DNA from: Patescibacteria group bacterium
GTDB taxonomy: Bacteria; Patescibacteriota; JABMPQ01; JAQVVF01
Assembly: GCA_028699085.1 (NCBI GenBank)
Contig: JAQVVF010000001.1
Coordinates: 28,333-92,332, forward strand
Length of the DNA stretch: 64,000 bases
Reading direction: 5' to 3'
This document shows, in pieces, positions 6,333-64,000 of this stretch. Under the pieces are notes generated by a model, which saw nothing but the letters and a program-made list of their open reading frames with translations, ran no database searches and was not told where the DNA came from. The first letter of the stretch is position 1. Each line of letters starts with the position of its first letter. A program made the position numbers and the translations under genes.

Positions 6333-6372
6333 AAATTTATCATTTATAATTTGTAATTTTTAATTAGATATT

Positions 6373-6443
6373 GGGTCCGTAGCTCAATGGTAGAGCTGTA
6401 GCCTTTTAAGCTATAGATAAGAGTTCGATTCTCTTCGGACCCA
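6373..6443 (+). tRNA. tRNA-Lys (anticodon UUU)
   Basis: Cloverleaf folded by hand: acceptor GGGTCCG/CGGACCC, D-arm GCTC-AATGGTA-GAGC, anticodon stem GTAGC/GCTAT with loop CTTTTAA (TTT at 6405-6407), T-arm AAGAG-TTCGATT-CTCTT, discriminator A. No CCA is encoded. Confidence 0.8.
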
Positions 6444-6597
6444 AAAATATAATTTCTGGTTGCCAGAGTTCCGGAACGTCAGAACGACCGAAATGTCAAA
6501 TTTATTTAGGTTAATAATCTGCATATGAAGGCAGTTTTTTGTTGTCAAAATTTAGCTATTCCGAAATTCCGAAGCTCCAATTTCCAAAGTTCTAAAA

Positions 6598-6625
6598 TTA
6601 AAAAATCCTGTCAAATAACAGGATT
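6598..6625 (-). terminator. Rho-independent terminator for the minus-strand gene at 6638-7150 (AATCCTGT-N6-ACAGGATT, then T-run on the minus strand)
   Basis: 8-bp stem read directly. The A-run at 6599-6605 on plus becomes a U-tract on the minus transcript. Confidence 0.6.
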
Positions 6626-6637
6626 AAAAGGTACAAA

Positions 6638-7150
6638 TCAAAATGGCTGAATTGCTTTTTGAAACATAATACAATCCAGAACATCTCTTTGGTCTGGGCG
6701 TAGATGAATACAAGTAATGACTTTATTCTTATTCATTACGAAAATCAAAGTGTCATAACGACGGTATCGAATTGTCTCCTCCAAGCTTGGACTTTTAGTA
6801 CAAAAGCTCTTTAGAAACAGTTCGGCTTCCCCTGAAAGCTCAATAGCATCTGGTGCAGTGCACAAGGCAACAATTAGCATGCCTATTGTGGACAAACATA
6901 ATATACCTGTATCTTCCCACATTCTATCAAATGCTAGCAATGCTTCATCAATTCTGCCCAATTCCAGGAATCTTCTTAAGTAATTACATTGAGCTGCCAT
7001 TTCAATACGATGAGGCACTGAAATAACATGCTCTGGAGACTTAAAAAAGTTGAAAAAACCAATCTGTCCTTCTGGTATTCTCAACCTCCACTGGACAAAG
7101 CGTTCAATAGCATGAACGCTTACGTAAATCTCGGGAGTCGGGGAGCACAT
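6638..7150 (-). CDS. Hypothetical protein (170 aa), GC-richer, led by a strong SD (GGAGGG-N7-ATG), located right after tRNA-Lys
   Basis: Long ORF with its own terminator. The N-terminal HAIERF motif loosely resembles DUF4258-type small toxin motifs, which is speculative. Confidence 0.4.
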   Translation of the reverse strand: MCSPTPEIYVSVHAIERFVQWRLRIPEGQIGFFNFFKSPEHVISVPHRIEMAAQCNYLRRFLELGRIDEALLAFDRMWEDTGILCLSTIGMLIVALCTAPDAIELSGEAELFLKSFCTKSPSLEETIRYRRYDTLIFVMNKNKVITCIHLRPDQRDVLDCIMFQKAIQPF

Positions 7151-7296
7151 CTTTTTGCCCTCCTCTACTTGTTTCTTGTCTAGGGTGCAATAATATATAA
7201 TAAAACTTTTTAATTAAAAAGTCAAGTTATTTACCAAAATAAAAAAATATGCTAATCTAGATATAACAGTAAATATATTAAAAATAAAATAAAAAT

Positions 7297-10710: not shown

Positions 10711-12186
10711 ATGGCAAATAATGATATATCCGTTTTCGCAACGACAAACTATCGTAACAAAAAAGTAGTTTTTGGTATCAAGCGCGATGATCGTCGCAGA
10801 CACATGTATGTGATTGGAAAAACTGGCATGGGCAAAACAAACCTTATGGAAAATATGGCGATTTCTGATATTCGTGCTGGTAATGGTATTTGTGTTGTCG
10901 ATCCGCATGGCGAGTTTGCTGAGAGAATGTTAGATTTTGTGCCTGCTAATCGTATTAACGATGTTATCTATTTTAATCCAGGTGATATGGATTATCCAAT
11001 TGCTTTTAATGTTATGGAGAATATCAATCCTGCATATAAACATTTAATATCATCAGGACTTATCGGCGTTTTTAAAAAAATCTGGGCCGATTCCTGGGGT
11101 CCTCGTCTTGAATATGTTTTAAGAAATTCAATTTTAGCCTTACTCGATTATCCAGGCTCAACAATGCTTGGCATTATGAGAATGCTTGTAGATAAAGAAT
11201 ACCGAAAAAAAGTTATTGATAAGATACAAGATCCAGTAGTCAAGCAATTCTGGGTTGAAGAATATTCAAAATATCCAGATAAATTTCAAACAGAAGCAAT
11301 CGCACCTATCCAAAATAAAGTCGGACAATTTTTATCAATTTCCTTAATCAGAAACATTGTTGGCCAGTCAAAGTCTACAATTGATATGCGTGAAGCAATG
11401 GACACAAAGAAAATTCTAATCCTCAATCTAGCAAAAGGAAGAATTGGTGAAGATGCTTCAGCATTATTTGGCGCTGTCATTATAACCAAGATTCAATTAG
11501 CCGCCATGTCTCGTGTTGATATTCCGGAAGAAGAGAGAGCTGATTTTTATCTTTATGTCGATGAGTTCCAGAATTTTGCAACTGAATCATTTGCTGATAT
11601 TTTATCCGAAGCTAGAAAATATCACTTGAATTTAATTATCGGCCATCAATATATCGGGCAATTAGAAACAGGAGGATCAACAAAAGTACGTGATGCTGTT
11701 TTTGGCAATGTCGGTACAATTGCTTGTTTTAGAGTTGGTGCAGCTGATGCTGAATTTTTAGTCAGCGAATTTGAACCAATTTTTACTGAAATTGATTTAG
11801 TTAACCTAACAAAATATAATATCTATCTGAAATTAATGATTGATGGTGTTGCTTCTCAAGCATTCAGTGCTACCACCTTACCGCCATCTACAAGAAAAGA
11901 GGGCAATGCTGAAAAAATTATTAAAGTTTCGCGTGAACGATATGCGACTGACCGCAAGATTGTTGAAGAAAGAATTTCTAAATGGTCAGAAAATATTGTC
12001 AGAGATGAAGCAACAATGCCACAAGCAAGATTTTTTCCAAAGAAAAAAGAAGCTCAGCAAAGTCATCAACCTTTCAAAAAAGCATTTGGTGAAATCTTCA
12101 AACAAAAATTACAAAAAGAAGAAACCAAGCAAGAAGAAAAACCAAGAGAGACATTAAAGCCAGGACAAGTAATAAAAATGGATTAG
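10711..12186 (+). CDS. P-loop NTPase of the FtsK/HerA/TraD-VirD4 (coupling-protein-like) superfamily, with a K/E-rich C-terminal tail
   Basis: Walker A (VIGKTGMGKT) preceded by DDRRRHMYVIG, Walker B (LYVDEFQNF), and motifs VVDPHGE and GHQY. Paralog of the C-terminal half of the 61742 ORF. Confidence 0.65.
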   Translation: MANNDISVFATTNYRNKKVVFGIKRDDRRRHMYVIGKTGMGKTNLMENMAISDIRAGNGICVVDPHGEFAERMLDFVPANRINDVIYFNPGDMDYPIAFNVMENINPAYKHLISSGLIGVFKKIWADSWGPRLEYVLRNSILALLDYPGSTMLGIMRMLVDKEYRKKVIDKIQDPVVKQFWVEEYSKYPDKFQTEAIAPIQNKVGQFLSISLIRNIVGQSKSTIDMREAMDTKKILILNLAKGRIGEDASALFGAVIITKIQLAAMSRVDIPEEERADFYLYVDEFQNFATESFADILSEARKYHLNLIIGHQYIGQLETGGSTKVRDAVFGNVGTIACFRVGAADAEFLVSEFEPIFTEIDLVNLTKYNIYLKLMIDGVASQAFSATTLPPSTRKEGNAEKIIKVSRERYATDRKIVEERISKWSENIVRDEATMPQARFFPKKKEAQQSHQPFKKAFGEIFKQKLQKEETKQEEKPRETLKPGQVIKMD

Positions 12187-15551: not shown

Positions 15552-15572
15552 AAATCACCACAAAGGTGATTA
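15552..15572 (-). terminator. Hairpin ATCACC-ACAAA-GGTGAT. A U-tract follows on the minus strand, so it terminates the minus gene at 15570-15947 and perhaps alaS
   Basis: Read directly. The A-run at 15546-15553 lies on the plus strand. Confidence 0.5.
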
Positions 15573-15947
15573 GAAACGTGCGCGCTTAGTTTTTCTTCGA
15601 GGCTTCCTTGCGAAAGTAAAAACAAATTTCGTAATTCCGAATTCTGAAGAGCTATGTCTTTTTTCGACATCTTCTTTCTTATCGAGGTTATAAAGACCTG
15701 CTAAAAATTCAGCAAAGAAAGTGGCAGTGAAGAATCGATTATTCAAGTCATGACATTGATTGTAATCCTGCAAAAAAGTTACACTTCTACTTCTCGTTTC
15801 TATTCCAAATGGATAAGTTTTATCATGAAAGCCAGGAAATAAAACTTCTTTGCCAACTTTATCAAAGAGTTCAACGTCCGTAGAACTTCCTCTTTTAAAA
15901 GTGATGATTAGCGTATAGCCAACTTTAATAAGCTTTTTTTGCCCCAT
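15570..15947 (-). CDS. Hypothetical protein (125 aa), GC-richer, strong SD (AGGAGG-N6-ATG), basic C-terminal tail
   Basis: The ORF starts at MGQKK at 15947. RBS read directly. No family was recognised. Confidence 0.4.
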   Translation of the reverse strand: MGQKKLIKVGYTLIITFKRGSSTDVELFDKVGKEVLFPGFHDKTYPFGIETRSRSVTFLQDYNQCHDLNNRFFTATFFAEFLAGLYNLDKKEDVEKRHSSSEFGITKFVFTFARKPRRKTKRARF

Positions 15948-16149
15948 CTTTTTCCTCCTGACTTTAGAGCTGGTCAATATAACATATCTTTAACAAAAGT
16001 CAAGACCAGAAAATATCTTGAAACATAGTTGTTTATAATAAAAATTAAAATGTGGTATAATAACATATAACAAGTTAACAATTAACAGTTAACAAATTTT
16101 AAGTTCGTATGTGTTAATTGTTAAATGTTAATAGTTAATTGTTTACGAT

Positions 16150-26649: not shown

Positions 26650-27660
26650 ATGTTCATAAAGAAAATCGGCATTGATCTTGGTACGGCAAATTCAGTAGTC
26701 TATTTACCAAAGAAAGGCATTGTTTTAAATGATCCTTCTGTTGTCGCTGTCTCATTAGATGATAATTCGATTCTAGCAGTAGGAAATGAAGCAAAACAAA
26801 TGCTTGGCCGAACGCCAGACACAATTGTTGCTTCTCGTCCAATGAAAGATGGCGTAATCGCTGATTATCGTGTTACTGAAGCAATGCTTCGTTATTTTAT
26901 TAACAAATCAATCGGTAATGTTAGATTATTCCGTCCTGAAGTCATGGTTTCTGTTCCAGCTGGCATTACTTCTACTGAAAGAAGAGCTGTCGTTGATGCT
27001 ACTATGCAAGCTGGTGCTAAAGCTGCTTACATTATAAAAGAGCCAATTGCTGCAGCTATTGGCGCTGGAATTCCAATTGCTCAATCATGCGGCAACATGG
27101 TCATCGATATCGGTGGCGGAACAACAGAAGTTGCTGTTATTTCTTTGGGAGGTATCGTTGCTGTTAATTCAGTTCGTGTTGCTGGAAATAAACTAGACGC
27201 TGCTATTGCCAATTATATTCGTAAAAAACATGGTTTAGTAATTGGTGATCGAACAGCTGAAGAAATTAAAATAAAAATTGGCACGTGTTTGCCAGTTGAA
27301 AAAGAAGACACAATTGAGATTCGCGGTCGCGATATGGTTCGCGGTCTGCCAAAAAATATTATTGTTACTTCAAACGAAACAACTGAAGCAATTCAAGACG
27401 AGCTTCGGGAAATAGTTCAAGCCGTTAAAGCTGTTTTACAAGAAACTCCTCCAGAATTATCAGCTGATGTTATGGACAAAGGCATGATTTTAACTGGTGG
27501 TGGGGGATTATTAAGAAATTTAGATCAGCTTTTAGCCAAGTCAACTGGTGTTCCATGTTATGTTGCTGAAGATCCATTGCTTTGTGTTGTAAAAGGTACT
27601 GCAGCAGCGCTTGAAAATTTGGACTCATACAAGAGAAGTGTATTAGCATCTAAAAGGTAA
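26650..27660 (+). CDS. mreB: MreB-like actin homolog (paralog 1)
   Basis: IGIDLGTANSVVY and DIGGGTTEVAVIS motifs are present. A second, more canonical copy is at 36197. Confidence 0.8.
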   Translation: MFIKKIGIDLGTANSVVYLPKKGIVLNDPSVVAVSLDDNSILAVGNEAKQMLGRTPDTIVASRPMKDGVIADYRVTEAMLRYFINKSIGNVRLFRPEVMVSVPAGITSTERRAVVDATMQAGAKAAYIIKEPIAAAIGAGIPIAQSCGNMVIDIGGGTTEVAVISLGGIVAVNSVRVAGNKLDAAIANYIRKKHGLVIGDRTAEEIKIKIGTCLPVEKEDTIEIRGRDMVRGLPKNIIVTSNETTEAIQDELREIVQAVKAVLQETPPELSADVMDKGMILTGGGGLLRNLDQLLAKSTGVPCYVAEDPLLCVVKGTAAALENLDSYKRSVLASKR

Positions 27661-36196: not shown

Positions 36197-37261
36197 ATGT
36201 CTATCGTAAATAATGTTTTAGGTCGCTTTTCCAAAGATATCGGAATCGATTTAGGCACAGCTAATACTTTGGTTTATGTCAAAGACAAAGGCATAGTTAT
36301 TAACGAACCTTCTGTTGTTGCAGTTAATAAAAGAACAAACCAAGTTCTAGCAATTGGTAATGAAGCAAAAAAAATGGTTGGAAAGACCCCAGCCCACATT
36401 GTTGCAACTAGACCTCTAGTTGACGGAGTTGTCTCTGATTTTGAAGTTACTGAACAAATGCTTCGTTATTTTATTGAAAAAGTTCATCAAGAAGGCTTTA
36501 CAATCTTCCCTCGTCCAAGAGTTGTGATTGGCATTCCATCTGGCGTTACTGAAGTTGAAAGAAGAGCAGTAGAAGATGCTTCAATCAGCGCTGGAGCAAG
36601 GCAAGCATTTTTGATTGAAGAGCCAATGGCAGCTGCAATTGGCGCGCGTCTTCCAGTTCAAGATGCTTCTGGAAATATGATTGTTGATATCGGTGGTGGC
36701 ACGACAGAAGTTGCCGTCATCTCTTTAGGCGGTCTAGTTACCGCAAAATCATTAAGAATAGCAGGCGATGAATTAAACCAAAACATTATTGAATATGCTC
36801 GCTCAGAATTCAATTTACTTTTAGGTGAAAGAACAGCCGAAGATATAAAAATTGCAATTGGTTCAGCTGCAAAAATTGACGAACCGCTTGAAACAACGAT
36901 GCGTGGACGTGATTTAGTGACTGGCTTGCCGAAGGAGGTTGTCATTAATGACGAACAAGTTCGCGAAGCCTTGATGCGTTCAGTCAGAATAATTGTTAAT
37001 AGCATCAAAACAACAGTTGAAGAAACGCCTCCAGAGTTAGTTGCTGATATCATGAAAAGAGGAATCGTCTTGGCCGGTGGCGGATCACTGCTTCGTGGCT
37101 TAGATAAGGTATTATCAGAGCAGACTCAAATGCCTGTTCATATTGCTGATGATCCATTGACTTGCGTTGTTCGTGGTTGCGGTATTGTTTTGGAAGACAT
37201 CGACGCCTTGAAAGATGTTTTGATTCCAACTCAATATGAAAAGCCTCCAAGAATATTTTAA
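36197..37261 (+). CDS. mreB: Rod-shape determining protein MreB (canonical copy, followed by mreC and mreD)
   Basis: IGIDLGTANTLVYV and DIGGGTTEVAVIS motifs. Operon context mreBCD-mrdA. Confidence 0.9.
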   Translation: MSIVNNVLGRFSKDIGIDLGTANTLVYVKDKGIVINEPSVVAVNKRTNQVLAIGNEAKKMVGKTPAHIVATRPLVDGVVSDFEVTEQMLRYFIEKVHQEGFTIFPRPRVVIGIPSGVTEVERRAVEDASISAGARQAFLIEEPMAAAIGARLPVQDASGNMIVDIGGGTTEVAVISLGGLVTAKSLRIAGDELNQNIIEYARSEFNLLLGERTAEDIKIAIGSAAKIDEPLETTMRGRDLVTGLPKEVVINDEQVREALMRSVRIIVNSIKTTVEETPPELVADIMKRGIVLAGGGSLLRGLDKVLSEQTQMPVHIADDPLTCVVRGCGIVLEDIDALKDVLIPTQYEKPPRIF

Positions 37262-45504: not shown

Positions 45505-45908
45505 AAAAAGTTCTCATCTTCGGCGCGTTTGATCTTTTGCACCCAGGCCATCTTGATTTTTTTAAACAAGCTAAAAAATTAGGGGATAGTCTAACTGTTA
45601 TAGTTGCACGTGATCAAACAGTTAGCGCCATCAAAAAACATCGCACATTGTTTAACGAGCAAGAAAGATTGGCTAATGTTAAAAATCAAAAGATAGTTAA
45701 TGAAGCAAGATTAGGCAATTTAGATGACCCGTACAAGATAGTGAAGCAGGAAAAGCCAGATATTATTGCTTTAGGCTATGATCAAAATTCATACACCGAA
45801 GAATTAGAAGACAAAATCAAAGAATTTGGTTTTAAAACAAAAGTTGTCAGACTGAAACCATTCAAGCCAGAAAAATATAAATCATCAAAGCTAAAGCTTA
45901 ATTTATGA
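45501..45908 (+). CDS. Cytidylyl/adenylyltransferase-family protein (RibL/TagD-like nucleotidyltransferase)
   Basis: IFGAFDLLHPGHLDF matches the (H/T)xGH nucleotidyltransferase signature. 135 aa. Overlaps rdgB by 4 nt. Confidence 0.6.
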   Translation: MKKVLIFGAFDLLHPGHLDFFKQAKKLGDSLTVIVARDQTVSAIKKHRTLFNEQERLANVKNQKIVNEARLGNLDDPYKIVKQEKPDIIALGYDQNSYTEELEDKIKEFGFKTKVVRLKPFKPEKYKSSKLKLNL

Positions 45909-46222
45909 CCATGTTTTATGATATTCACACAACTTGCAAAAATGTAGCTGAAGCCAGAAAAATTGGCAAGAATTTAGTCGAGCAAAAAATAGCAATTTGT
46001 GTTAATATAATAGAAAAGGTTAATTCAATTTATTGGTGGGGGGGAAAGATTGTTGATGAAGATGAATCATTGTTATCATTAAAAACAAAAAAAGAAAAAG
46101 TTAATCAGGCAATCAAATTAATTACCAAAATGCATAGTTATAAATTGCCAGGCATTTCTGTTTACAAAATAGACAAAACAACACCAGGCATTGAAAAATG
46201 GATCAATGAAACATTAAAATAA
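45905..46222 (+). CDS. cutA: Divalent-cation tolerance protein CutA
   Basis: 105 aa, CutA1-like (AICVNIIEKVNSIYWWGGKIVDEDESLL). Confidence 0.7.
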   Translation: MTMFYDIHTTCKNVAEARKIGKNLVEQKIAICVNIIEKVNSIYWWGGKIVDEDESLLSLKTKKEKVNQAIKLITKMHSYKLPGISVYKIDKTTPGIEKWINETLK

Positions 46223-50125: not shown

Positions 50126-50917
50126 ATGATAGGTATTTTTGATTCAGGAGTTGGCGGATTGACAGTCGCTCGCCAGATAATTAAAAAACTGCCAGAGTAT
50201 CAGATAATTTATTTTGGCGATACTGCCAGAACTCCTTATGGCAATAAAAGTAAAGAAACAATTATTAAGTATGCTATTCAGGATACAAAATTTTTATTAA
50301 AAAATGGCGCTAAAATAATTGTTATTGCTTGTCATACCGCATCTGCCGTTGCTGCATCAGAATTAAGAAAAAAGTTCCCAGATGTTCCAATTTTTAATGT
50401 GGTCAAGGCTGGATTAATCAAAGCAGAACGAGTAACAAAAAATAAAAAAGTCGGTATTATTGGAACAAGAGCAACGATTTTCAGCCAAGTTCATGAAAAC
50501 TATTTAAAAAAAATAGATAAAGATATCAAAGTCTACACTGAAGCTTGTCCTCTTATTGTTCCCTTAGTAGAAGAAGACTGGATCAATCGTCCAGAAACAA
50601 AAAAGATTGTAAAATTTTATTTAAAACCATTTAGAAAGGAAAAAATAGATACTTTGGTTTTAGCCTGCACACATTATCCACTTGCAAAAGAAGCGATCAA
50701 AAAGGCGATTAAGCGGAAAATAAATATCATTGATCCAGGAGAAGAAGTGGCAAAAGAAGTTGATCTTTTTTTAAAAAATCATCCAATCATTGAAAAAAGA
50801 TTAGCAAAAAGCAAAAAACACAAATTCTTTGTTAGCGATATTCCTTTTAAATTTCAAGAATTTTCTGAAAAAATATTAGATCAAAAAATAAAAGTCAAAC
50901 AAATAAGTCTTGATTAA
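50126..50917 (+). CDS. murI: Glutamate racemase
   Basis: IGIFDSGVGGLTV and VIACHTAS motifs are present. Confidence 0.85.
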   Translation: MIGIFDSGVGGLTVARQIIKKLPEYQIIYFGDTARTPYGNKSKETIIKYAIQDTKFLLKNGAKIIVIACHTASAVAASELRKKFPDVPIFNVVKAGLIKAERVTKNKKVGIIGTRATIFSQVHENYLKKIDKDIKVYTEACPLIVPLVEEDWINRPETKKIVKFYLKPFRKEKIDTLVLACTHYPLAKEAIKKAIKRKINIIDPGEEVAKEVDLFLKNHPIIEKRLAKSKKHKFFVSDIPFKFQEFSEKILDQKIKVKQISLD

Positions 50918-52020
50918 TGGAGATATTCTTTACTAAATTTAATTTTATTCTAGCCTTTGCTTTGGCTTTTTTGATTACTGTATTATTTACATATTTAGTT
51001 AGAAAATTAGCTCTTCAATATAATATAGTCGATCGTCCAAACAGGAAAAGAAAAATCCATAAGAGCAATATTCCACTTATGGGAGGTTTAGCCGTTTTTA
51101 TCGGCTTTTTTATTACCTTAAGTTATTTTGTTTTAATAGACCGTGATTTCTTCGGCGGTTATATGCTTCCAAAATATATTCTAGGCCTAGCATTAGGCGG
51201 ATTAATCTTAATTATTGGTGGAATAATTGATGACAAATATAATCTAAGTCCAAAACAGCAATTTATTTTTCCGATAATTTCTTGTCTTGTTGTCATTATT
51301 TCTGGCATTGGCATTACTTTTATCAGTAATCCAATTGGTAACACAATAAATTTAGACGAAATCAGAATTAAGCTTTTTACAATTAATAATATTCCTTATT
51401 TTTTTACAGTTTTTGCTGATATTTTCACCATGATTTGGTTATTAGGCATGATTTATACTACAAAATTTTTAGATGGCATGGATGGACTTGTTTCCGGAAT
51501 ATCTGTAATTGCTTCAGTGATATTATTCTTTTTAAGTTTAAGTACGAAGGTAATGCAACCAGAAACTGCATTGCTTTGCATAATTCTAGCTGGAGCATCT
51601 TTAGGATTCTTAATCTTTAATTTTCATCCTGCCAAGATCTTTTTAGGAGAGGGAGGCAGTACATTCATTGGATTTATGTTAGGATCTCTAGCCATAATTT
51701 CTGGCGGAAAAATTGCTACAGCATTATTAATAATGGGCATTCCAATTCTTGACGTAATCTGGGTAATTTTAAGAAGAATTTTTAAACACAAATCTCCATT
51801 TCAAGCTGATCGTCAACATCTGCATTTTCGTCTTTACGATCTAGGATTCTCACAAAGGAGTGCTGTCATCTTTTTATGGTCAATTTCTGCATTATTTGGG
51901 CTTTTTGCGTTGTTTGTCCAAGGAAAAGAAAAGATACTAGCTTTTATCATTTTAATCGGCTTGATGACAATTATGGCAATATTACTATTAATTTTTTACA
52001 AGAAAAAACAGACTAGATAG
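50917..52020 (+). CDS. MraY/WecA-family polyprenyl-phosphate sugar-1-phosphate transferase (GT4)
   Basis: 10-11 TM helices. DRPNRKRKIHKSNIPLMGG is closer to WecA/TagO than to the MraY TPTMGG motif. Confidence 0.7.
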   Translation: MEIFFTKFNFILAFALAFLITVLFTYLVRKLALQYNIVDRPNRKRKIHKSNIPLMGGLAVFIGFFITLSYFVLIDRDFFGGYMLPKYILGLALGGLILIIGGIIDDKYNLSPKQQFIFPIISCLVVIISGIGITFISNPIGNTINLDEIRIKLFTINNIPYFFTVFADIFTMIWLLGMIYTTKFLDGMDGLVSGISVIASVILFFLSLSTKVMQPETALLCIILAGASLGFLIFNFHPAKIFLGEGGSTFIGFMLGSLAIISGGKIATALLIMGIPILDVIWVILRRIFKHKSPFQADRQHLHFRLYDLGFSQRSAVIFLWSISALFGLFALFVQGKEKILAFIILIGLMTIMAILLLIFYKKKQTR

Positions 52021-52024
52021 TCTG

Positions 52025-52426
52025 TTAATGAGCAATCGATTGAGGAGCAATCTGTTGTGGAAAATGTAGTCCAAATCTAGAAATCTTATAAACCGTATTG
52101 TCATCAATTATTTCAAGAGGAATTTCTTGTTCTTGACAATGCAAACTGATTATTTTCATATAACCGTCACGACCATCAATAGTTGGAGCAATAAGTGCAA
52201 ATCCAAGCGTGTAACCAGCTTTCAAAACATGCATGCAAGAGCTTAAATCATTGCACACATAAACATCGAATCCTGCATCTTCCAGCGCTTTCAAAAGTGC
52301 TCTACATCTCTTTACTTCACATTCCATCAAGAGTACCATCATTTTTTTTCCAGAAGTACAGCCTGCAGTTTTACTGCCAGGATCCTGGCCGTTTGCAGGC
52401 TTCTCGGAAGCTTTTTTCGCTGGCAT
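52025..52426 (-). CDS. Degenerate receiver-like (pseudo-REC) protein, GC-richer, SD GGAGGG
   Basis: REC-like alpha/beta layout, but the phospho-acceptor Asp position reads LIAPTIDGRDG (D replaced by A). Confidence 0.4.
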   Translation of the reverse strand: MPAKKASEKPANGQDPGSKTAGCTSGKKMMVLLMECEVKRCRALLKALEDAGFDVYVCNDLSSCMHVLKAGYTLGFALIAPTIDGRDGYMKIISLHCQEQEIPLEIIDDNTVYKISRFGLHFPQQIAPQSIAH

Positions 52427-52546
52427 GTTGATTTCCCTCCAACCATCAGCGACCCAACCTTAGTTTAACAGATTATTTACAACCACACAAAAATTTTTAA
52501 AGTGGATATCTAATAAAAAAAGACAGGCAACTGTCTTATATAGTAC

Positions 52547-52888
52547 TCAAGCTAGAATTAAAAGAACAATTTCGATCAAAATAGAAATATCTGTTTTGCC
52601 CCAAAAATAATCATAATATCCCTCGAGATCTTCTCTTGCAGTGCTCATTACAATACAAGGAATTTTATGCTCATCGCAATAGGCCTTTACAACATCGCCA
52701 TTTGCAATCGGCATATAAAAGTCAGTGACTGCCAAATGAATATTTCTTTCTGTTTGAAGTACTCTTAGTGCATCATGCCCATTTCGCGCATGCACTACTT
52801 CAAACCCCTTCATTTCCAACTCTATTTCAATCAAATCACGCAAGTCAATATTATCGTCAACAACTAATATCTTTTTGCTTCCCCGCAT
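52547..52888 (-). CDS. Stand-alone response-regulator receiver (CheY-like REC) domain protein, with a G8 tract abutting the start codon
   Basis: Motifs ILVVDDN, LAVTDFYMP...NG and IVMSTA are present. A C8 run at 52889-52896 (G8 on the coding strand) lies immediately 5' of the ATG. Confidence 0.6.
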   Translation of the reverse strand: MRGSKKILVVDDNIDLRDLIEIELEMKGFEVVHARNGHDALRVLQTERNIHLAVTDFYMPIANGDVVKAYCDEHKIPCIVMSTAREDLEGYYDYFWGKTDISILIEIVLLILA

Positions 52889-52994
52889 CCCCCCCCTGTT
52901 GTCGCTGACAGCAATTTATATATACAACATTATAATAAAAAAGTCAATACAAAAAGTCTTGACCAAAGTGGAAAACAAGCATATACTTAAATAT

Positions 52995-53309
52995 ATGACA
53001 AAATTTGCAATTATAAAAACAGGCGGAAAACAATACAAAGTCTCTGAAGGAGATATTATTTTGATTGACAAAATCATCGAACCTAAAAAGACTTTAGAAT
53101 TTAAAGAAGTACTTTTATTTGCTGATGAAAAAGATACTAAGATTGGCGCTCCAAAAATATCTGGAACAAAGGTTGAAGCTGATGTTCTAAGAGCAGAAGT
53201 AAAAGGGGACAAGGTCTTAACTGTAAAATATAAATCTAAAAAAAGATTCAAAAAAACAGTTGGTTTCAGACCAAGGTATACAGAAGTAAAAATAACAAAA
53301 ATTTCTTAA
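52995..53309 (+). CDS. rplU: 50S ribosomal protein L21
   Basis: MTKFAIIKTGGKQYKVSEGD is the typical L21 N-terminus. ATG at 52995. Confidence 0.85.
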   Translation: MTKFAIIKTGGKQYKVSEGDIILIDKIIEPKKTLEFKEVLLFADEKDTKIGAPKISGTKVEADVLRAEVKGDKVLTVKYKSKKRFKKTVGFRPRYTEVKITKIS

Positions 53310-53395: not shown

Positions 53396-53932
53396 TTAAG
53401 ATGTCGAAGATATTCTCCTGTACAAAATCAAGTCATTTAACGAAATGTTAAGATGTGTAGCTTTATCATGAGAATTAAAAACTTCATAAAGGTTATTTCC
53501 GATTATGTTTGCAATGTGCCCTTCAATGTAAGCACCTTTTTTAAATGCTCTGATAAAATCTCCAACCTTAAGCTCAACGAATACATTTTTGCCTTCAGCA
53601 AATATCATCTCTGAACTAGGTATTTCAAGTATTTCTGCCGAACCATTTTTCAACATTTTTTCCAAAAAGAGTAATGAATATTTTCGAGTTTGTTGAATGC
53701 CATCGATGCAATAACAAACTTCGACAAAACTGTGGAAAAATGGTTGTGCTAATCCGTCAATAACTCGTTTTACAATTTCAACATCTTGAGCAACAACTGT
53801 TGCAGAAACAATAAGAATTTTCTTCTTAAGCCATAAAAAGCCACATCTATGAGTTAATATCAATCTTAAAGTAGTGCCCAACGGAAACTTTTCAAAAGCA
53901 GCACCAGTTTCCCATTGCAACTGCTCGCTCAT
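53396..53932 (-). CDS. Hypothetical protein (about 178 aa), GC-richer, SD GGAGG-N4-ATG
   Basis: ORF starting at MSEQLQWETG. No family was recognised. Located downstream of ybaB-recR. Confidence 0.35.
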   Translation of the reverse strand: MSEQLQWETGAAFEKFPLGTTLRLILTHRCGFLWLKKKILIVSATVVAQDVEIVKRVIDGLAQPFFHSFVEVCYCIDGIQQTRKYSLLFLEKMLKNGSAEILEIPSSEMIFAEGKNVFVELKVGDFIRAFKKGAYIEGHIANIIGNNLYEVFNSHDKATHLNISLNDLILYRRISSTS

Positions 53933-54065
53933 TTTTCCTCCATAACCTGCCGACTTCGGCAGGCAAAATAGAATGTGCAAGTATCTAATTTAGCAAACAT
54001 AGTATTTAATGTCAAATAAAAAAAAGCTATTCAGCTCTTTCAAAATTACATATTTTTGTTATATG

Positions 54066-55216: not shown

Positions 55217-56569
55217 CTAGATTTCACGTCTTTTTTCAAGATTTCTAAAGCTTGCAACATTCTGTTCAAAGAATAGATCAACAACACCTGTTGGTCCATT
55301 TCTATGCTTCTTTATATGAATCTCAGCAATATGTTTACGATCTGTATCTTTTTTATAAACTTCTTCACGATAAATAAACATTACTACATCGGCATCCTGT
55401 TCAATACTACCACTTTCTCTTAAATCTGACAATTGTGGAATTTGCGGTGTTCTATTCTCTACGGCACGAGATAATTGAGATAAAGCCAAAACAGGTACAT
55501 TGAGTTCGCGAGCTATACCTTTTAGTGCTCTAGATATTTCGGAAACTTCTTGGACTCTGCTTTCTGTATTTCGGCCTTCCATTAATTGCAAATAATCGAC
55601 AACCAAAAAACCTAATCCATGTTCAGCATGCAATCTTCTTGCTTTCGTTCTTATTTCCATGATATTTGAAGAAGGGGAGTCATCAATAAATAATGGCGCT
55701 TCCGAAAGCACACCCATCGCATGTCCGATTCTTGGAAAATCATCATCTTCTTCGCGATCGGAAAGTTTTCCTGTTCTCATTCGCCATAAATCAACATTTG
55801 CTTCAGAGCAAAGTATTCTATCAACAAGCTGCTCTTTCGACATTTCTAAACTAAATATGCCAACAGGAATTTTTTGTTTAGCAATATTCTTTGCAAAATC
55901 TAATGCTAGAGAAGTTTTACCCATAGATGGTCTAGCAGCTAGAATAATCAAATCAGATCGCTGAAAACCAGCCAAGACATTATCTAGATCTGGAAAGCCA
56001 GTTGGAATTCCACGCAATTTACTGCCATCTCGATGCAATTCATCAATCCTTTCAAAGGCGTCAGTCAAAACATCTTTAATAACAATAAAATTTTGCTTTA
56101 AATATTTTTGCGAAATACCAAACAGTTTTTGTTCAGCTTCATCCAGAAGTTTTTCAATATCTTTTCCTTCTTGATATCCTAATCTCGAAATATCACCAGC
56201 AGCAGTAATCAATTTTCTTAATGTCGATTTTCTTTGAACTATTTTAGCATAATGAATAATATTTCCAGCAGTTGGCACAATATTTGCTAAAGAAACTAAA
56301 TAGCTTCTTCCGCCAATCAAATCAAGATGTCCTTTGTCAGTTAGAGAATTAGCCAAACTTACGACATCAATAGGTTCACGTTTTTCATACAATTCCAACA
56401 TTGAAGAAAAAATAATGCTATTTTTTTCTTCATAAAAATCTTCCGGACGTAAAAAATCAGAAACTTTTATAACTGCATCTTTATCAATCAAAAGTGAGCC
56501 TAAAACAGATTTTTCAGCTTCTTTATTTCTTGGCGGTAATTTTTCAACAACGTCGTTTTGGTTTTCCAT
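55217..56569 (-). CDS. dnaB: Replicative DNA helicase DnaB
   Basis: N-terminal primase-interaction domain (EAEKSVLGSLL) and RecA-like core with Walker A (ARPSMGKTSLAL). Confidence 0.9.
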   Translation of the reverse strand: MENQNDVVEKLPPRNKEAEKSVLGSLLIDKDAVIKVSDFLRPEDFYEEKNSIIFSSMLELYEKREPIDVVSLANSLTDKGHLDLIGGRSYLVSLANIVPTAGNIIHYAKIVQRKSTLRKLITAAGDISRLGYQEGKDIEKLLDEAEQKLFGISQKYLKQNFIVIKDVLTDAFERIDELHRDGSKLRGIPTGFPDLDNVLAGFQRSDLIILAARPSMGKTSLALDFAKNIAKQKIPVGIFSLEMSKEQLVDRILCSEANVDLWRMRTGKLSDREEDDDFPRIGHAMGVLSEAPLFIDDSPSSNIMEIRTKARRLHAEHGLGFLVVDYLQLMEGRNTESRVQEVSEISRALKGIARELNVPVLALSQLSRAVENRTPQIPQLSDLRESGSIEQDADVVMFIYREEVYKKDTDRKHIAEIHIKKHRNGPTGVVDLFFEQNVASFRNLEKRREI

Positions 56570-58007: not shown

Positions 58008-58143
58008 AGTAATTTAAAAATAACATTAAATTCAATAATTTTCAAATATAATAGGGAAGGTAAGCAGTCCATCTTGTGTTTTTCAGACAAAAGATTATAA
58101 TATTACAAACAAGTTCTTTCAAACCAAGAAGGAGGAAAAGAAA

Positions 58144-58494
58144 ATGGGACTGATAGTTGGAATCATTGTTGTCATCATACTTATTTTTGGAGTCTTTTTT
58201 GTTCTTGGCGCTGCAATTGGCGGAATCTTAGGAGTTCTTGGCGTTGTCGCTTTGATTTGGATTACCGCTGGATTTATTATTTCCAATACTAAAGAAGGCA
58301 GTATTAGCGCAATAGTTGGTATTATTGCTTTAGTTTTGACTATCCTTTTCTTTTCAACTGGAGCTTGTAAGCATGTATATGTTGCATGCAATAATGTTCC
58401 TTATGGCGTTTTAGATTCCATCAGTCCATTCCCAGGAAAATCAATGGTCTGTAACGGAAAAGTAGTTTGGAGATCAAACGGAAAATGTCCATGA
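58144..58494 (+). CDS. Small membrane protein (116 aa) with a Cys-rich C-terminus, SD GGAGGA
   Basis: Three hydrophobic helices followed by C...C...C...C. A terminator follows at 58524-58554. Confidence 0.4.
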   Translation: MGLIVGIIVVIILIFGVFFVLGAAIGGILGVLGVVALIWITAGFIISNTKEGSISAIVGIIALVLTILFFSTGACKHVYVACNNVPYGVLDSISPFPGKSMVCNGKVVWRSNGKCP

Positions 58495-61741: not shown

Positions 61742-64000
61742 TGCAAAATCAAATCGAAAACATAACTAGTTCTATAAACGAGTCGTATCTTGGCATTATT
61801 TTTATTACTGCAGTTTTTCTTGTCGGAATATTATTAATTATCAGCTTATTAAAAATAATGCGAAAAAGGAATATTATTCCACATTCTTTGAATATGGTTA
61901 CTTTGCTAATTTCTGTCCCAAGAGAAGTCAAGCAAGTTACAGAAGAAGCAAAAAAAGAAGAAAAAGAAATGATTTCAATCGCAGAAACAATGTTTGCTAA
62001 TATCTATTCTATTGAAACTGCGTCGAATGGTTTGATGTCTGGACTCTATGGAAAAGAATATGTTTCTTTTGAAATAGTCGCCATTAACGGTGAGATTCGT
62101 TTTTATGTCTCTACTCCGAAAAGATTGCAGGATTATATTGAAAAGACAATTCATTCTCAATATCCGAAAGCCTATATTTCCGAAGAAGGCGAGTACAATG
62201 TGTTTAAACCCAAAAGTCAAGTTAGGGGTGTTATGCTTGTAACTGAAAAACAAAACTATTTGCCATTTAAAACATATCAAACAATAGAAACCGATCCTCT
62301 GAATGCTATTACAAATGCATTAAGCAAATTAGATGAAAAAACAGAAGGGGCAGCAATTCAATATTTAATTAGACCAGCTGGAAAAAAATGGATGAAAAAA
62401 GGTCCTCATATTGCTAGAGAAATGCAACGCGGAAAAACTTATGAATATGCATCAGCAAGCCTTTTAGGCAAACTTTTTAAAAGAAAAGAAGAAGGCAAAT
62501 CTAGTGTCCTAGAGCAAGCAGTGTTGCCTGGAGCTTCAGAACAACAAATGTCTGGAGGAGCGCCAATGCTTTCTCCGATGATTCAAGAACAAATTAAAGC
62601 TTTGGAAGTAAAATCTTCTAAGCTTGGTTTTGAAACAAATATTAGAATTATTTCCTCATCAGATTTAGATACAAAAGCAGAAGCAAATTTAAGAAATATT
62701 GTCGGCGCTTTTACAGAATATACGGATCCAAACCTGAACAAATTTGTTGAAAAGAAATTGAATGTTCAGAAACTAATTCAGGCTTTCATTTTTCGCACTT
62801 TTGACGAAAAAAGAAAAAGCATTTTGAACACTGAAGAATTAGCATCTGTATTCCATTTGCCGACAAAATTTGCCGAAACACCAAATATTCATTGGCTATT
62901 AGCAAGAGATGCTCCGGCTCCACATAATGTTCCTAAAGAAGGATTATTATTAGGTAAAAACACATTTCGAGGTATCGAAACACCTATTCGGATTAAAGAT
63001 GATGATCGAAGAAGACACATGTATATTATTGGCCAAACTGGTGTTGGTAAATCAAACTTTTTACAAAACATGATTGTTCAAGATATTAAAGATGGCAAAG
63101 GTCTTTGCGTTGTTGATCCACATGGAGATTTAGTTGAAAGTGTCTTGCCATTTATTCCAAAAGAAAGAGTTGATGATATTATTCTTTTTGAACCTTTTGA
63201 TGTTAATCGACCGATGGGCTTAAATATGCTTGAATTTAAAACTGAAGACCAAAAAGATTTTGCTGTCCAGGAAATGATGCAAATTTTTTACAAACTATTT
63301 CCGCCAGAAATGATTGGCCCAATGTTCGAGCATCAAATGAGAAATGTCATGCTGACATTAATGGCTGACAAAGAAAATCCTGGAACTTTAGCCGAAATTC
63401 CAAGAATGTTCACAGATAATGAATATGCCAAAGAATGGATTGAAAAATTGAAAGATCCTGTTGTTAAAGCTTTTTGGGAGAAAGAAATGGCAAAGACTTC
63501 AGATTTTCACAAATCAGAAATGCTTGGTTATCTAATTTCTAAAGTTGGTCGTTTTGTTGAAAATGAAATGATGAGAAATATAATTGGCCAAAGCCATTCT
63601 TCTTTTGATCTTAGAAAAATCATGGATGAGGGTAAAGTCTTGCTTGTAAATTTATCAAAAGGAAAAATTGGTGAAACAAATTCTTCTTTATTAGGCTTAA
63701 TTATTGTTTCTAAAATTCAGATGGCAGCTTATTCACGTGCTGATATTCCAGAATCAGAAAGAAAAGACTTTTATTTATACGTTGATGAGTTCCAAAATTT
63801 TGCTACCGACAGTTTTGCTTCAATATTATCCGAAGCCAGAAAATACAGACTTAATTTAATCGTCGCTCACCAATATGTTAAACAGCTTGAAGAGAAGATC
63901 AGAGATGCTGTCTTTGGAAATGTCGGTACTTTTACTGCATTTCGTGTTGGTGTAGAGGATGCTGAGATTGTCGCCAAAGAGCTTGAACCTGTTTTTACAG
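61742..64000 (+). CDS. Fused single-TM membrane domain plus TraD/VirD4-like P-loop ATPase (partial, runs off the window end)
   Basis: Hand-translated open frame from the ATG at 61742 with no stop to 64000. The N-terminal 430 aa is paralogous to the 9406 protein. The C-terminal part is paralogous to the 10711 ATPase (DDRRRHMYIIGQTGVGKS, VVDPHGD, LYVDEFQNF, AHQY). Confidence 0.6.

What the first reader, a model, noticed from the sequence alone, without database searches (positions are those of the whole stretch)
52025..52910. Orphan receiver pair (REC + pseudo-REC) with a G8 homopolymer at the ribosome-binding site
There are two adjacent minus-strand receiver-like genes with no histidine kinase or output domain in the window. 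One has the canonical DD...D...T residues. The other has lost the phospho-acceptor Asp (LIAPTIDG). The canonical one is preceded by an 8-G run directly abutting its ATG. Slipped-strand length changes in that run would alter SD spacing, which is a candidate phase-variable switch. Both genes are GC-richer and interrupt an otherwise housekeeping region between the MraY/WecA gene and rplU.
Basis: partly seen in the sequence, partly recalled or inferred. Interest (0 to 1): 0.55.

Follow-up and report, generated by a model that had tools for sequence, protein, structure and literature searches.

The report
Receiver plus pseudo-receiver gene islet
Two small neighbouring genes in an ultra-small (Patescibacteria) bacterium encode a genuine signal-receiver protein and a degenerate copy of the same fold; they form an old, fast-evolving pair whose true receiver has been deleted in most relatives, and the run of eight G's in front of it is most likely a variant of the gene's G-rich ribosome-binding site rather than a shown on/off switch.

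Summary
REC1 (52547-52888, minus strand, 113 aa) is a true stand-alone receiver with D11/D12, D56, S82/T83 and K98. The next gene (52025-52426, minus strand, 133 aa) is a receiver-like protein with Ala at the phospho-acceptor position. A G8 run (52889-52896) abuts the REC1 ATG, and the window contains no histidine kinase.

The pair is ancestral. Two relatives (L015, L019) carry REC plus a pseudo-receiver at the same place between rplU and a WecA/MraY-type transferase. At least six other lineages keep only the pseudo-receiver. Two of them (L004, L010) still hold remnants of the REC 3' end. So REC is dispensable and the pseudo-receiver is always retained. Both genes evolve far faster than their neighbours. 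Each has its own promoter-like site, a strong Shine-Dalgarno-like site (rare in this genome) and a terminator.

The leader of the REC gene is G-rich in all three orthologs:
- L019: GGGGGAGGGAG plus 7 nt.
- L015: G7 plus 4 nt, with further G6 and G7 runs.
- Window: G8 plus 0 nt.

This fits a ribosome-binding site whose spacing has collapsed. Slipped-strand phase variation is possible but untested, because no population data were available. Overall this is an ordinary kind of system with a few interesting evolutionary features.

The parts
52547..52888 (-). REC1: stand-alone receiver domain protein, 113 aa. It has D11 D12, D56, S82/T83 and K98, a compact alpha4 (7 residues shorter than canonical) and a hydrophobic alpha5.
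   Evidence: Pfam PF00072 at 42.8 bits. PDB sequence hits to CpxR and RR468 receivers. Foldseek best hit 3dge_C, E 3e-5. hhalign of the three-ortholog alignment against canonical REC: 99.6%, E 2e-23, full length. Orthologs in L015 (56% identity) and L019 (42%).
52889..52896 (-). G8 homopolymer directly 5' of the REC1 ATG. It is the local form of a G-rich, Shine-Dalgarno-like leader.
   Evidence: Sequence. Only G/C run of 8 or more in the window, 0.05-0.08 expected. Orthologous leaders: L015 GGGGGGG-TGAA-ATG, plus G6 upstream and G7 in codons 1-3; L019 GGGGGAGGGAGAGAAA-ATG.
52897..52913 (-). Remaining 5' leader of REC1 (UGCUGUCAGCGACAACA). It is predicted to pair with codons 9-12, which would enclose the G8-AUG region.
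   Evidence: Inverted repeat found. ViennaRNA MFE -13.6 kcal/mol, z -1.7 against shuffles. Inference only.
52919..52947 (-). Promoter-like site for REC1: TTGACT, 17 nt spacer, TATATA.
   Evidence: Read from the sequence. Counterparts are L015 TTGACT-17-TATCAT and L019 TTGACT-16-TATACT. The consensus scan did not report it because the second hexamer lacks T at position 6. Inferred, not shown.
52510..52537 (-). Intrinsic terminator after REC1: AAGACAGTTGCCTGTCTT followed by a T run.
   Evidence: Conserved after the REC gene in L015 (GACAGTAAACCTGTC-T8) and L019 (GACAGCTATATGGGGCTGTC-T7). Retained in REC-less L004.
52472..52501 (-). Promoter-like site for the pseudo-receiver gene: TTTAAA or TTAAAA, 17-18 nt spacer, AATAAT.
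   Evidence: AAATAATCTG is conserved in L004, L010 and L015.
52435..52440 (-). GGAGGG Shine-Dalgarno site of the pseudo-receiver gene, 8 nt before its ATG.
   Evidence: Conserved in relatives.
52025..52426 (-). Pseudo-receiver, 133 aa. It has a basic disordered N-terminal tail (residues 1-27) and a receiver-like (beta-alpha)4 core. The active-site positions read E35 C36, A80 and D108.
   Evidence: No Pfam hit. AF2 pLDDT 62 with strand/helix alternation over residues 28-118. Foldseek hits to the AdiA wing domain, CheY3, CRE1 and ArcA receivers at E about 1e-3. A family profile hits REC domains of hybrid kinases at E 1.3e-6 to 4.5e-4 in 1.84e9 proteins. hhalign against REC E 1.2e-4. dN/dS 0.19-0.33.
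52007..52026 (-). Hairpin terminator between the convergent pseudo-receiver and transferase genes.
52959..53309 (+). Divergent neighbour rplU (L21) with promoter TTGACC-17-TATACT ending 7 nt before its ATG (52998). This is the upstream border of the islet.
   Evidence: Pfam Ribosomal_L21p in relatives.
50917..52020 (+). WecA/MraY-family glycosyl-1-phosphate transferase. This is the downstream border of the islet.
   Evidence: Pfam Glycos_transf_4 E 9.8e-30. NCBIfam wecA-like E 3.4e-39, below the cut-off.

Best explanation
This is a small, fast-evolving two-gene signalling islet. It has been fixed between rplU and a WecA/MraY-type transferase since before this Patescibacteria clade diversified.

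**Gene 1 (REC1).** A complete single-domain response regulator of the CheY/Spo0F type, with the full phospho-acceptor pocket. It most likely takes a phosphoryl group from an unlinked kinase or a small-molecule donor and acts through protein contacts. This step is inferred.

**Gene 2.** A stand-alone pseudo-receiver that cannot be phosphorylated on Asp (Asp to Ala). It carries a basic disordered tail and presumably acts by binding partners. This step is also inferred.

**Organisation.** Each gene has its own promoter-like site, a strong Shine-Dalgarno-type site and an intrinsic terminator.

**Evolution.** REC is an optional input. It has been deleted in most relatives while the pseudo-receiver is always kept, so the pseudo-receiver does not depend on REC.

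**The G8 run.** It is the window lineage's version of a conserved G-rich ribosome-binding leader of the REC gene. The 4-7 nt spacer seen in orthologs is missing here, which probably gives weak translation. Length change by slippage could tune translation, but that is not shown.
For: **REC identity and completeness.**. D11, D12, D56, S82 and K98 are invariant in the three orthologs.

**Pseudo-receiver.**
- REC-like fold and homology, with A80 at the acceptor position.
- It is a real gene under purifying selection: dN/dS 0.19-0.33, against 0.01-0.10 for its neighbours.

**Ancestral pair.**
- L015 (transferase 90% identical) and L019 (80%) both have rplU, then REC (115 and 121 aa, Pfam Response_reg), then a small receiver-like gene, then the transferase.

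**Loss of REC.**
- REC is absent from L002/L003, L004/L005, L006, L009, L010-L013 and L017/L018.
- L004 and L010 keep recognisable remnants of REC codons of about 83-88 and 102-113, and L004 also keeps the terminator.

**Separate expression signals.**

**G-rich leader in all three orthologs.**
- In L015 the only G/C runs of 6 or more in 9.1 kb are the three at the REC 5' end.

**Shine-Dalgarno usage.** SD-like motifs are rare in this genome and occur almost only before lineage-specific genes.
Against: - No kinase, phosphatase or target was identified, so the signalling role is inferred from family membership only.
- hhalign places K98 one column away from the canonical Lys. The single-sequence AF2 model is poor over residues 85-106.
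- With zero spacer, G8 is badly placed for Shine-Dalgarno pairing. It may therefore not work as a ribosome-binding site at all.
- The window REC1 may already be decaying: the spacer is lost and the polar C-terminal residues of the orthologs are replaced by VLLILA.
- Similarity between the window-type pseudo-receivers and those of L015/L019 is weak (hhalign E 0.04). Their orthology rests mainly on position.
Confidence: 0.65

Rival explanations
1. **Phase-variable switch.** Slipped-strand mispairing changes the G-tract length. This alters the effective Shine-Dalgarno to AUG spacing and switches or tunes REC1 translation within a population.
For: - G8 is very improbable by chance in a 32% GC window.
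- G homopolymers cluster at the 5' end of the same gene in a second lineage. L015 has G6, G7 and G7, one of them inside codons 1-3, where slippage would shift the reading frame. These are the only runs of 6 or more in 9.1 kb.
- Tract form differs between lineages: G8 with no spacer, G7 with 4 nt, and G5AG3.
- Runs of 8 or more G's are hypermutable in other bacteria (general knowledge of Campylobacter, Neisseria and Treponema tpr genes).
Against: - No within-population length data were available. L015 and L016 have identical tracts, though possibly from the same sample.
- The L019 ortholog has an interrupted tract containing a normal GGAGG. G-richness is therefore explained by ribosome binding without slippage.
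- In the window the tract lies outside the ORF and always abuts the ATG. Length change would only move the 5' edge of the tract, which gives graded rather than on/off control.
- The gene is dispensable in most relatives.
Confidence: 0.15
2. **Gene on its way out.** REC1 in this genome is no longer functional or barely expressed. The G8 abutting the ATG would be a degenerate leader left after loss of the spacer, and the ORF is intact only because decay is recent.
For: - REC was deleted in at least six related lineages, including the closest one, whose pseudo-receiver is 98.5% identical.
- The spacer present in orthologs is missing here.
- The C-terminal helix has lost the polar residues of the orthologs.
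- GC3 has fallen to 0.30, against 0.57 and 0.46 in the orthologs.
Against: - The 113-codon ORF is intact, with all five active-site residues and every position that is invariant among the orthologs.
- The promoter-like site and the terminator are intact.
Confidence: 0.15
3. **RNA G-quadruplex over the start codon.** The G runs would fold into a quadruplex that controls translation of the REC gene.
For: - ViennaRNA with quadruplex energies predicts a three-layer quadruplex across G7-UGAAAU-G7 in L015. The MFE is -29.2 kcal/mol, against -16.8 without the quadruplex term.
- It predicts a weak two-layer quadruplex in the window, worth about 1 kcal/mol.
Against: - No quadruplex is predicted in L019, and the gain in the window is negligible.
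- The feature is not conserved across the three orthologs.
Confidence: 0.05

Closest known systems
Single-domain response regulators (CheY, Spo0F, DivK, CpdR type; Pfam PF00072)
   Same: REC1 is a stand-alone receiver of about 115 aa. It has the acidic pair, the acceptor Asp, Ser/Thr, Lys and the aromatic switch residue (Y94 aligns with CheY Y106), and it has no output domain.
   Different: - Alpha4 is 7 residues shorter than canonical.
- No che, spo or div genes and no kinase lie nearby.
- No homolog above about 56% identity was found in 5.8e9 proteins.
- The gene is frequently deleted among close relatives.
Bacterial pseudo-receivers / aspartate-less receiver (ALR) domains (Maule et al. 2015, PMC4395418; Bourret et al. 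2025, PMC12632262)
   Same: The second gene is receiver-like but lacks the acceptor Asp (Ala80), one residue of the acidic pair (Cys36) and the Thr/Ser (Asp108). Like most characterised atypical regulators, it is an orphan.
   Different: - It is not recognised by PF00072 or by any other Pfam model at E up to 1.
- It is stand-alone, with no output domain, and has only four clear beta-alpha units.
- Within its syntenic set it diverges beyond sequence recognition.
Wing domain of acid-inducible Orn/Lys/Arg decarboxylases (AdiA; Pfam OKR_DC_1_N)
   Same: It is the best Foldseek match of the pseudo-receiver model (5xx1, E 1.4e-3, TM about 0.5). It is a receiver-like fold without phospho-chemistry that is used for protein assembly.
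   Different: It forms part of a 730-aa enzyme. There is no sequence relationship, and the match was made with a model of only moderate confidence.
Homopolymeric-tract contingency loci (Campylobacter, Neisseria and Haemophilus poly-G/C; Treponema pallidum tpr poly-G)
   Same: A G run of 8 lies immediately upstream of a non-essential gene in an AT-rich genome (from general knowledge).
   Different: The defining feature, tract-length polymorphism linked to expression, was not tested here. The tract position (abutting the AUG, outside the ORF) is unusual for such loci.

Membership tests
Receiver domain (PF00072), REC1 | Profile match above the curated threshold and a (beta-alpha)5 fold | tested here: met
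   42.8 bits against a cut-off of 30.2. hhalign 99.6% over the full length. Foldseek matches to RR468, CheY4 and PrrA. The AF2 model is weak in residues 85-106.
Receiver domain (PF00072), REC1 | Five active-site residues: DD, D, T/S and K | tested here: met
   D11, D12, D56, S82 and K98 are invariant in the three orthologs. K98 sits one column from the canonical Lys in hhalign, so the Lys assignment is probable rather than certain.
Receiver domain (PF00072), REC1 | Phosphorylation on Asp by a partner kinase | not testable with these tools
   No HisKA or HATPase_c in the window, nor in the flanks of L015 and L019. The rest of the genome was not available.
Pseudo-receiver / ALR, second gene | Receiver-like fold | tested here: inconclusive
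   AF2 pLDDT 62 with beta-alpha alternation. Foldseek E about 1e-3 and TM about 0.5 to receivers and the AdiA wing domain. The family profile hits REC domains at E 1.3e-6. hhalign E 1.2e-4 with probability 55%. All results are consistent, but none is strong.
Pseudo-receiver / ALR, second gene | [quoted passage not shown] | tested here: met
   A80 aligns to D57 of CheY, E35 and C36 to the acidic pair, and D108 to Thr. Ala is invariant in the five close homologs.
Pseudo-receiver / ALR, second gene | Recognised computationally as a receiver (PF00072 or a minor pseudo-receiver Pfam family) | tested here: not met
   No Pfam family at E up to 1 except a chance FSIP1 hit. No relevant NCBIfam hit.
Classical two-component operon | Kinase gene adjacent to or co-transcribed with the regulator | tested here: not met
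   The neighbours are rplU and a WecA/MraY-type transferase in all lineages.
Simple-sequence contingency (phase-variable) locus | Homopolymer of about 7-8 or more in a promoter, leader or 5' coding region | tested here: met
   G8 at 52889-52896. L015 has G6, G7 and G7 at the same gene's 5' end.
Simple-sequence contingency (phase-variable) locus | Tract-length polymorphism within or between closely related populations | not testable with these tools
   The only other assembly of this strain (L001) stops inside REC1, before the tract. L015 and L016 have identical tracts but are 100% identical overall. No reads were available.
Shine-Dalgarno-led initiation | Complementarity to the anti-SD with a spacing of about 5-9 nt to the start codon | tested here: inconclusive
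   G5 can pair with CCUCC through one G-U pair. The spacing is adequate in L019 (7 nt) and L015 (4 nt plus the tract) but only 0-3 nt in the window. The 16S 3' end is not in the window.

The most novel reading that the evidence does not exclude
The rplU-transferase gap may be a hypervariable host-interaction or signalling cassette of ultra-small epibiotic bacteria. In this reading the pseudo-receiver is under diversifying selection and is exchanged between lineages, and the true receiver is switched by G-homopolymer slippage: a leader G8 here, and a leader G7 plus a G7 in codons 1-3 in L015. This would be the first contingency locus described in the Candidate Phyla Radiation.

The evidence that leaves this open:
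- The pseudo-receiver is only 30% identical between the window and L015, while the flanking genes are 90-97% identical.
- Its tree disagrees with the tree of the flanking genes.
Probability: 0.12. Interest if true: 0.65.

Novelty: new member of a known kind. Interest (0 to 1): 0.33.

Why it matters
**Known parts.** Orphan single-domain receivers and pseudo-receivers are common and already described. NCBI already labels REC1 'response regulator'.

**What is of some value here.**
- This is a natural series in which a true receiver is repeatedly deleted while its pseudo-receiver neighbour is always kept. That bears on how pseudo-receivers work without phosphorylation, an open question raised in PMC12632262.
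- The pseudo-receiver family is invisible to Pfam and evolves 6-10 times faster than its neighbours in reduced genomes.
- In this genome, strong Shine-Dalgarno sites mark lineage-specific genes, while housekeeping genes have none.

If the G tracts prove to vary in length, this would be a first phase-variable gene in Patescibacteria.

Tried and rejected
- What suggested it: REC1 is absent from all first-found relatives, the flanks are conserved, tblastn and MAFFT homology ended at residue 100, and AF2 confidence was low at the C-terminus.
- Why it fails: more distant relatives found through the transferase gene carry REC orthologs whose C-termini align with the window's tail, and K98 is invariant. 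The 'resident' DNA in L004 and L010 is therefore a deletion remnant.

**2. REC and pseudo-receiver as a recent tandem duplicate (rejected).** They share only 25% identity over 61 aa, E 0.012.

**3. Anti-phage defence component (rejected).** There are no PADLOC hits.

**4. Origin from phage or plasmid (rejected).** There is no relative in IMG/VR. Plasmid hits are generic receivers at 40% identity or less.

**5. RNA quadruplex (rejected).** It is not conserved among orthologs.

**6. Rfam families.** No match in the region.

**7. Searching for strain variants of the G tract (led nowhere).**
- The exact REC1 protein is on record on one contig only.
- The one independent contig ends inside the gene.
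- The single genome and metagenome scans each returned only one locus, and neither carries REC.

Full report
**What is in the sequence.**
- The minus strand of 52025-52910 holds two small ORFs: 52547-52888 (113 aa, called REC1 here) and 52025-52426 (133 aa).
- Eight G's (52889-52896) directly precede the REC1 ATG. The nearest in-frame upstream codons contain no alternative start before a TAA.
- The run is the only G/C homopolymer of 8 or more in the window. About 0.05 are expected under an iid model, and dinucleotide shuffles give a mean of 0.08.
- The window is an AT-rich (32% GC) stretch of a Patescibacteria MAG. NCBI names the two products 'response regulator' (MDD3887225.1) and 'hypothetical protein PHN19_00415'. 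One relative is labelled Candidatus Saccharibacteria in its record title.
- The surroundings are housekeeping genes: hrcA-dnaK-dnaJ, alaS, rpoA, murA-like, mreBC, PBP2, folD, lysS, serS, alr, murI and a WecA/MraY-type transferase on one side; rplU, recR, ybaB, dnaB and cysS on the other.
- No ORF of 250 aa or more has HisKA or HATPase_c.

**REC1 is a real and complete receiver.**
- It passes the Pfam threshold and hits dozens of solved receivers. Its model matches RR468, CheY4 and PrrA.
- The Pfam and BLAST alignments stop near residues 87-100, and the single-sequence model is poor at the C-terminus. This first suggested a truncated domain.
- Two orthologs found later resolve this: L015 (115 aa, 56% identity) and L019 (121 aa as called, 42% identity). 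They align to the very end, and D11, D12, D56, S82 and K98 are invariant.
- The three-sequence profile aligns with canonical receivers over its full length (hhalign 99.6%, E 2e-23). There is a single 7-residue gap in alpha4, Y94 aligns with CheY Y106, and K98 sits one column from the catalytic Lys.

**The second gene is a pseudo-receiver.**
- It has no Pfam match.
- A profile of its five close homologs was searched exhaustively against 1.84 billion representatives. Apart from its own family, most of the few hits were receiver domains of hybrid kinases (E 1.3e-6 to 4.5e-4).
- hhalign against canonical receivers gives E 1.2e-4 in the expected register: E35/C36 at the acidic pair, A80 at the acceptor Asp, and D108 at the Thr.
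- The AF2 model (pLDDT 62) shows a disordered basic N-terminal tail and four beta-alpha units. Its best structural matches are the receiver-like wing domain of AdiA, CheY3, and the CRE1 and ArcA receivers, at E about 1e-3.
- It is a real gene. dN/dS is 0.19-0.33 in three comparisons, which is clearly below 1 but 6-10 times higher than the 0.01-0.10 of its neighbours.

**Comparative genomics changes the interpretation.**

*First set of relatives.* Contigs carrying close homologs of the pseudo-receiver all show rplU, a 190-250 bp gap, the pseudo-receiver and then the transferase, with no REC:
- L002/L003 (66% identity)
- L004/L005 (76%)
- L006 (52%)
- L009 (65%)
- L010-L013 (98.5%)

I first read this as a 310-bp insertion in the window lineage.

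*Second set of relatives.* Homologs of the transferase were used to reach further out.
- L015/L016 (transferase 90% identical) and L019 (80%) carry both a Response_reg gene and a small receiver-like gene in the same order and orientation.
- L017/L018 (74%) has only the latter.
- Because the REC proteins are orthologous along their whole length, REC is ancestral and was lost repeatedly.
- L004 and L010 still contain remnants of REC codons of about 83-88 and of the last dozen codons. In L004 the REC terminator also survives. The L004 junction fits a deletion between two CTG microhomologies.

The 'pair' is therefore genuine and old. The true receiver is dispensable, while the pseudo-receiver is kept in every lineage.

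**Rates and exchange.**

| Comparison with the window | Flanking proteins | REC | Pseudo-receiver |
|---|---|---|---|
| L015 | 90-97% identical | 56% | about 30% in pairwise alignment (16% in the multiple alignment) |

- The L015 and L019 pseudo-receivers resemble each other (41%) more than either resembles the window type. This conflicts with the flanking-gene tree.
- Their similarity to the window family is only marginal (hhalign E 0.04, in register).
- The L017 version still has the acidic triad VDDD and matches canonical receivers at E 3.9e-6.
- dS between the window and L010 is mosaic: 0.13 at the pseudo-receiver and about 0.5 at the transferase, rplU and alr.
- GC3 of REC is 0.57 in L015 and 0.46 in L019, against 0.2-0.3 for their neighbours. 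It is 0.30 in the window.
- Together these points indicate recombination or replacement at this locus and perhaps a foreign, GC-richer origin of REC.

**Expression signals.**
- REC has a promoter-like TTGACT-17-TATATA (52919-52947). Counterparts are TTGACT-17-TATCAT in L015 and TTGACT-16-TATACT in L019.
- A GACAG...CTGTC-T7 terminator follows REC in all three lineages.
- The pseudo-receiver has its own promoter-like site and a GGAGGG site 8 nt before its ATG.
- The two genes are therefore probably separate transcription units.
- Of about 59 genes in the window, SD-like motifs occur before only a handful, and nearly all of these are lineage-specific ORFs without Pfam hits. Housekeeping genes have AT-rich leaders, and rplU looks leaderless.

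**The G run.** The leaders of the three REC orthologs are:

| Lineage | Leader |
|---|---|
| L019 | AGAGGGGGAGGGAGAGAAA-ATG: contains GGAGG with a spacer of about 7 nt |
| L015 | CCTGGGGGGTGGCAAAGGGGGGGTGAA-ATG-GGGGGG-AGC: G6, then G7 with a 4-nt spacer, then a G7 spanning codons 1-3 |
| Window | CAACAGGGGGGGG-ATG-CGGGGA: G8 with no spacer |

- G-richness at this spot is thus conserved. The simplest reading is a Shine-Dalgarno-type site.
- The window version has lost the spacer, which should weaken initiation.
- On the other hand, pure runs of 7 or more occur in two of the three lineages, and in L015 they are the only such runs in 9 kb. This is what a contingency locus would look like.
- I could not test length variation. 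The only other assembly of this strain ends inside REC1, and L015 and L016 are identical throughout.
- A quadruplex over the start codon is predicted strongly only in L015.

**Verdict.**
The REC plus pseudo-REC pair is real and orphan. The phase-variation proposal remains an untested possibility, with a simpler alternative available.
- The system belongs to known kinds: an orphan single-domain response regulator plus a pseudo-receiver (PMC4395418; PMC12632262).
- Its modest interest lies in three features: repeated loss of the true receiver beside an always-retained, hyper-divergent pseudo-receiver; the restriction of Shine-Dalgarno sites to accessory genes; and the recurrent G homopolymers.

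Noticed in passing
whole window; examples 7150-7165, 15947-15958, 52426-52440, 53932-53941, 58131-58144, 62554-62566: Housekeeping genes have AT-rich leaders without Shine-Dalgarno motifs. Perfect GGAGG or GAGGAGG sites occur almost only before lineage-specific ORFs without Pfam hits: 6638-7150(-), 15570-15947(-), the pseudo-receiver, 53396-53932(-) and 58144-58494(+). One also occurs before a TrwB/VirD4-like ATPase starting at 62566.
   Followed up: partly
53396-53980 (-): This is a variable ORF between rplU and recR. Its true start is probably the ATG at 53932 (178 aa, with GGAGG 4 nt upstream), not the TTG at 53980. It has no Pfam, PDB or PADLOC match. It is present in L010-L012 (90% identity) and L002/L003 (44%) and absent from L004, L006, L015 and L019. 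L017 has two other unknown ORFs at this position.
   Followed up: partly
52959-53000 (+): rplU appears leaderless. Its TTGACC-17-TATACT promoter ends 7 nt before the ATG. The -35 box is back to back with the TTGACT box of the REC promoter, and the GTCAA...TTGAC arrangement is conserved in all relatives.
   Followed up: no
6372-7150: A 170-aa ORFan (6638-7150, minus strand) lies next to tRNA-Lys (6372-6444). It has the highest GC3 in the window (0.339, z 2.85) and a strong GAGGAGGG site. It may be an integrated foreign gene.
   Followed up: no
46038-46044 (+): This G7 run is the second-longest G/C homopolymer in the window and lies inside the CutA1-like gene (45905-46222). It could serve as an internal control for homopolymer length error in read pileups.
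   Followed up: no
10711-12186 (+) and 62566-end (+): Two TrwB/VirD4/HerA-like coupling-ATPase genes occur in one 64-kb window of a reduced genome. There are also two MreB paralogs (26650-27660 and 36197-37261).
   Followed up: no
L015 7633-9125: In the relative L015, DnaB is 946 aa and carries an intein with a LAGLIDADG domain. The window's DnaB (55217-56569) is 450 aa and has no intein.
   Followed up: no
window versus L010, 48832-56569: Synonymous divergence between the window and its closest relative is mosaic. It is 0.13-0.28 for the pseudo-receiver, ORF178, murI, ybaB and dnaB, but 0.45-0.51 for the transferase, rplU and alr. This indicates recombination among these lineages.
   Followed up: partly
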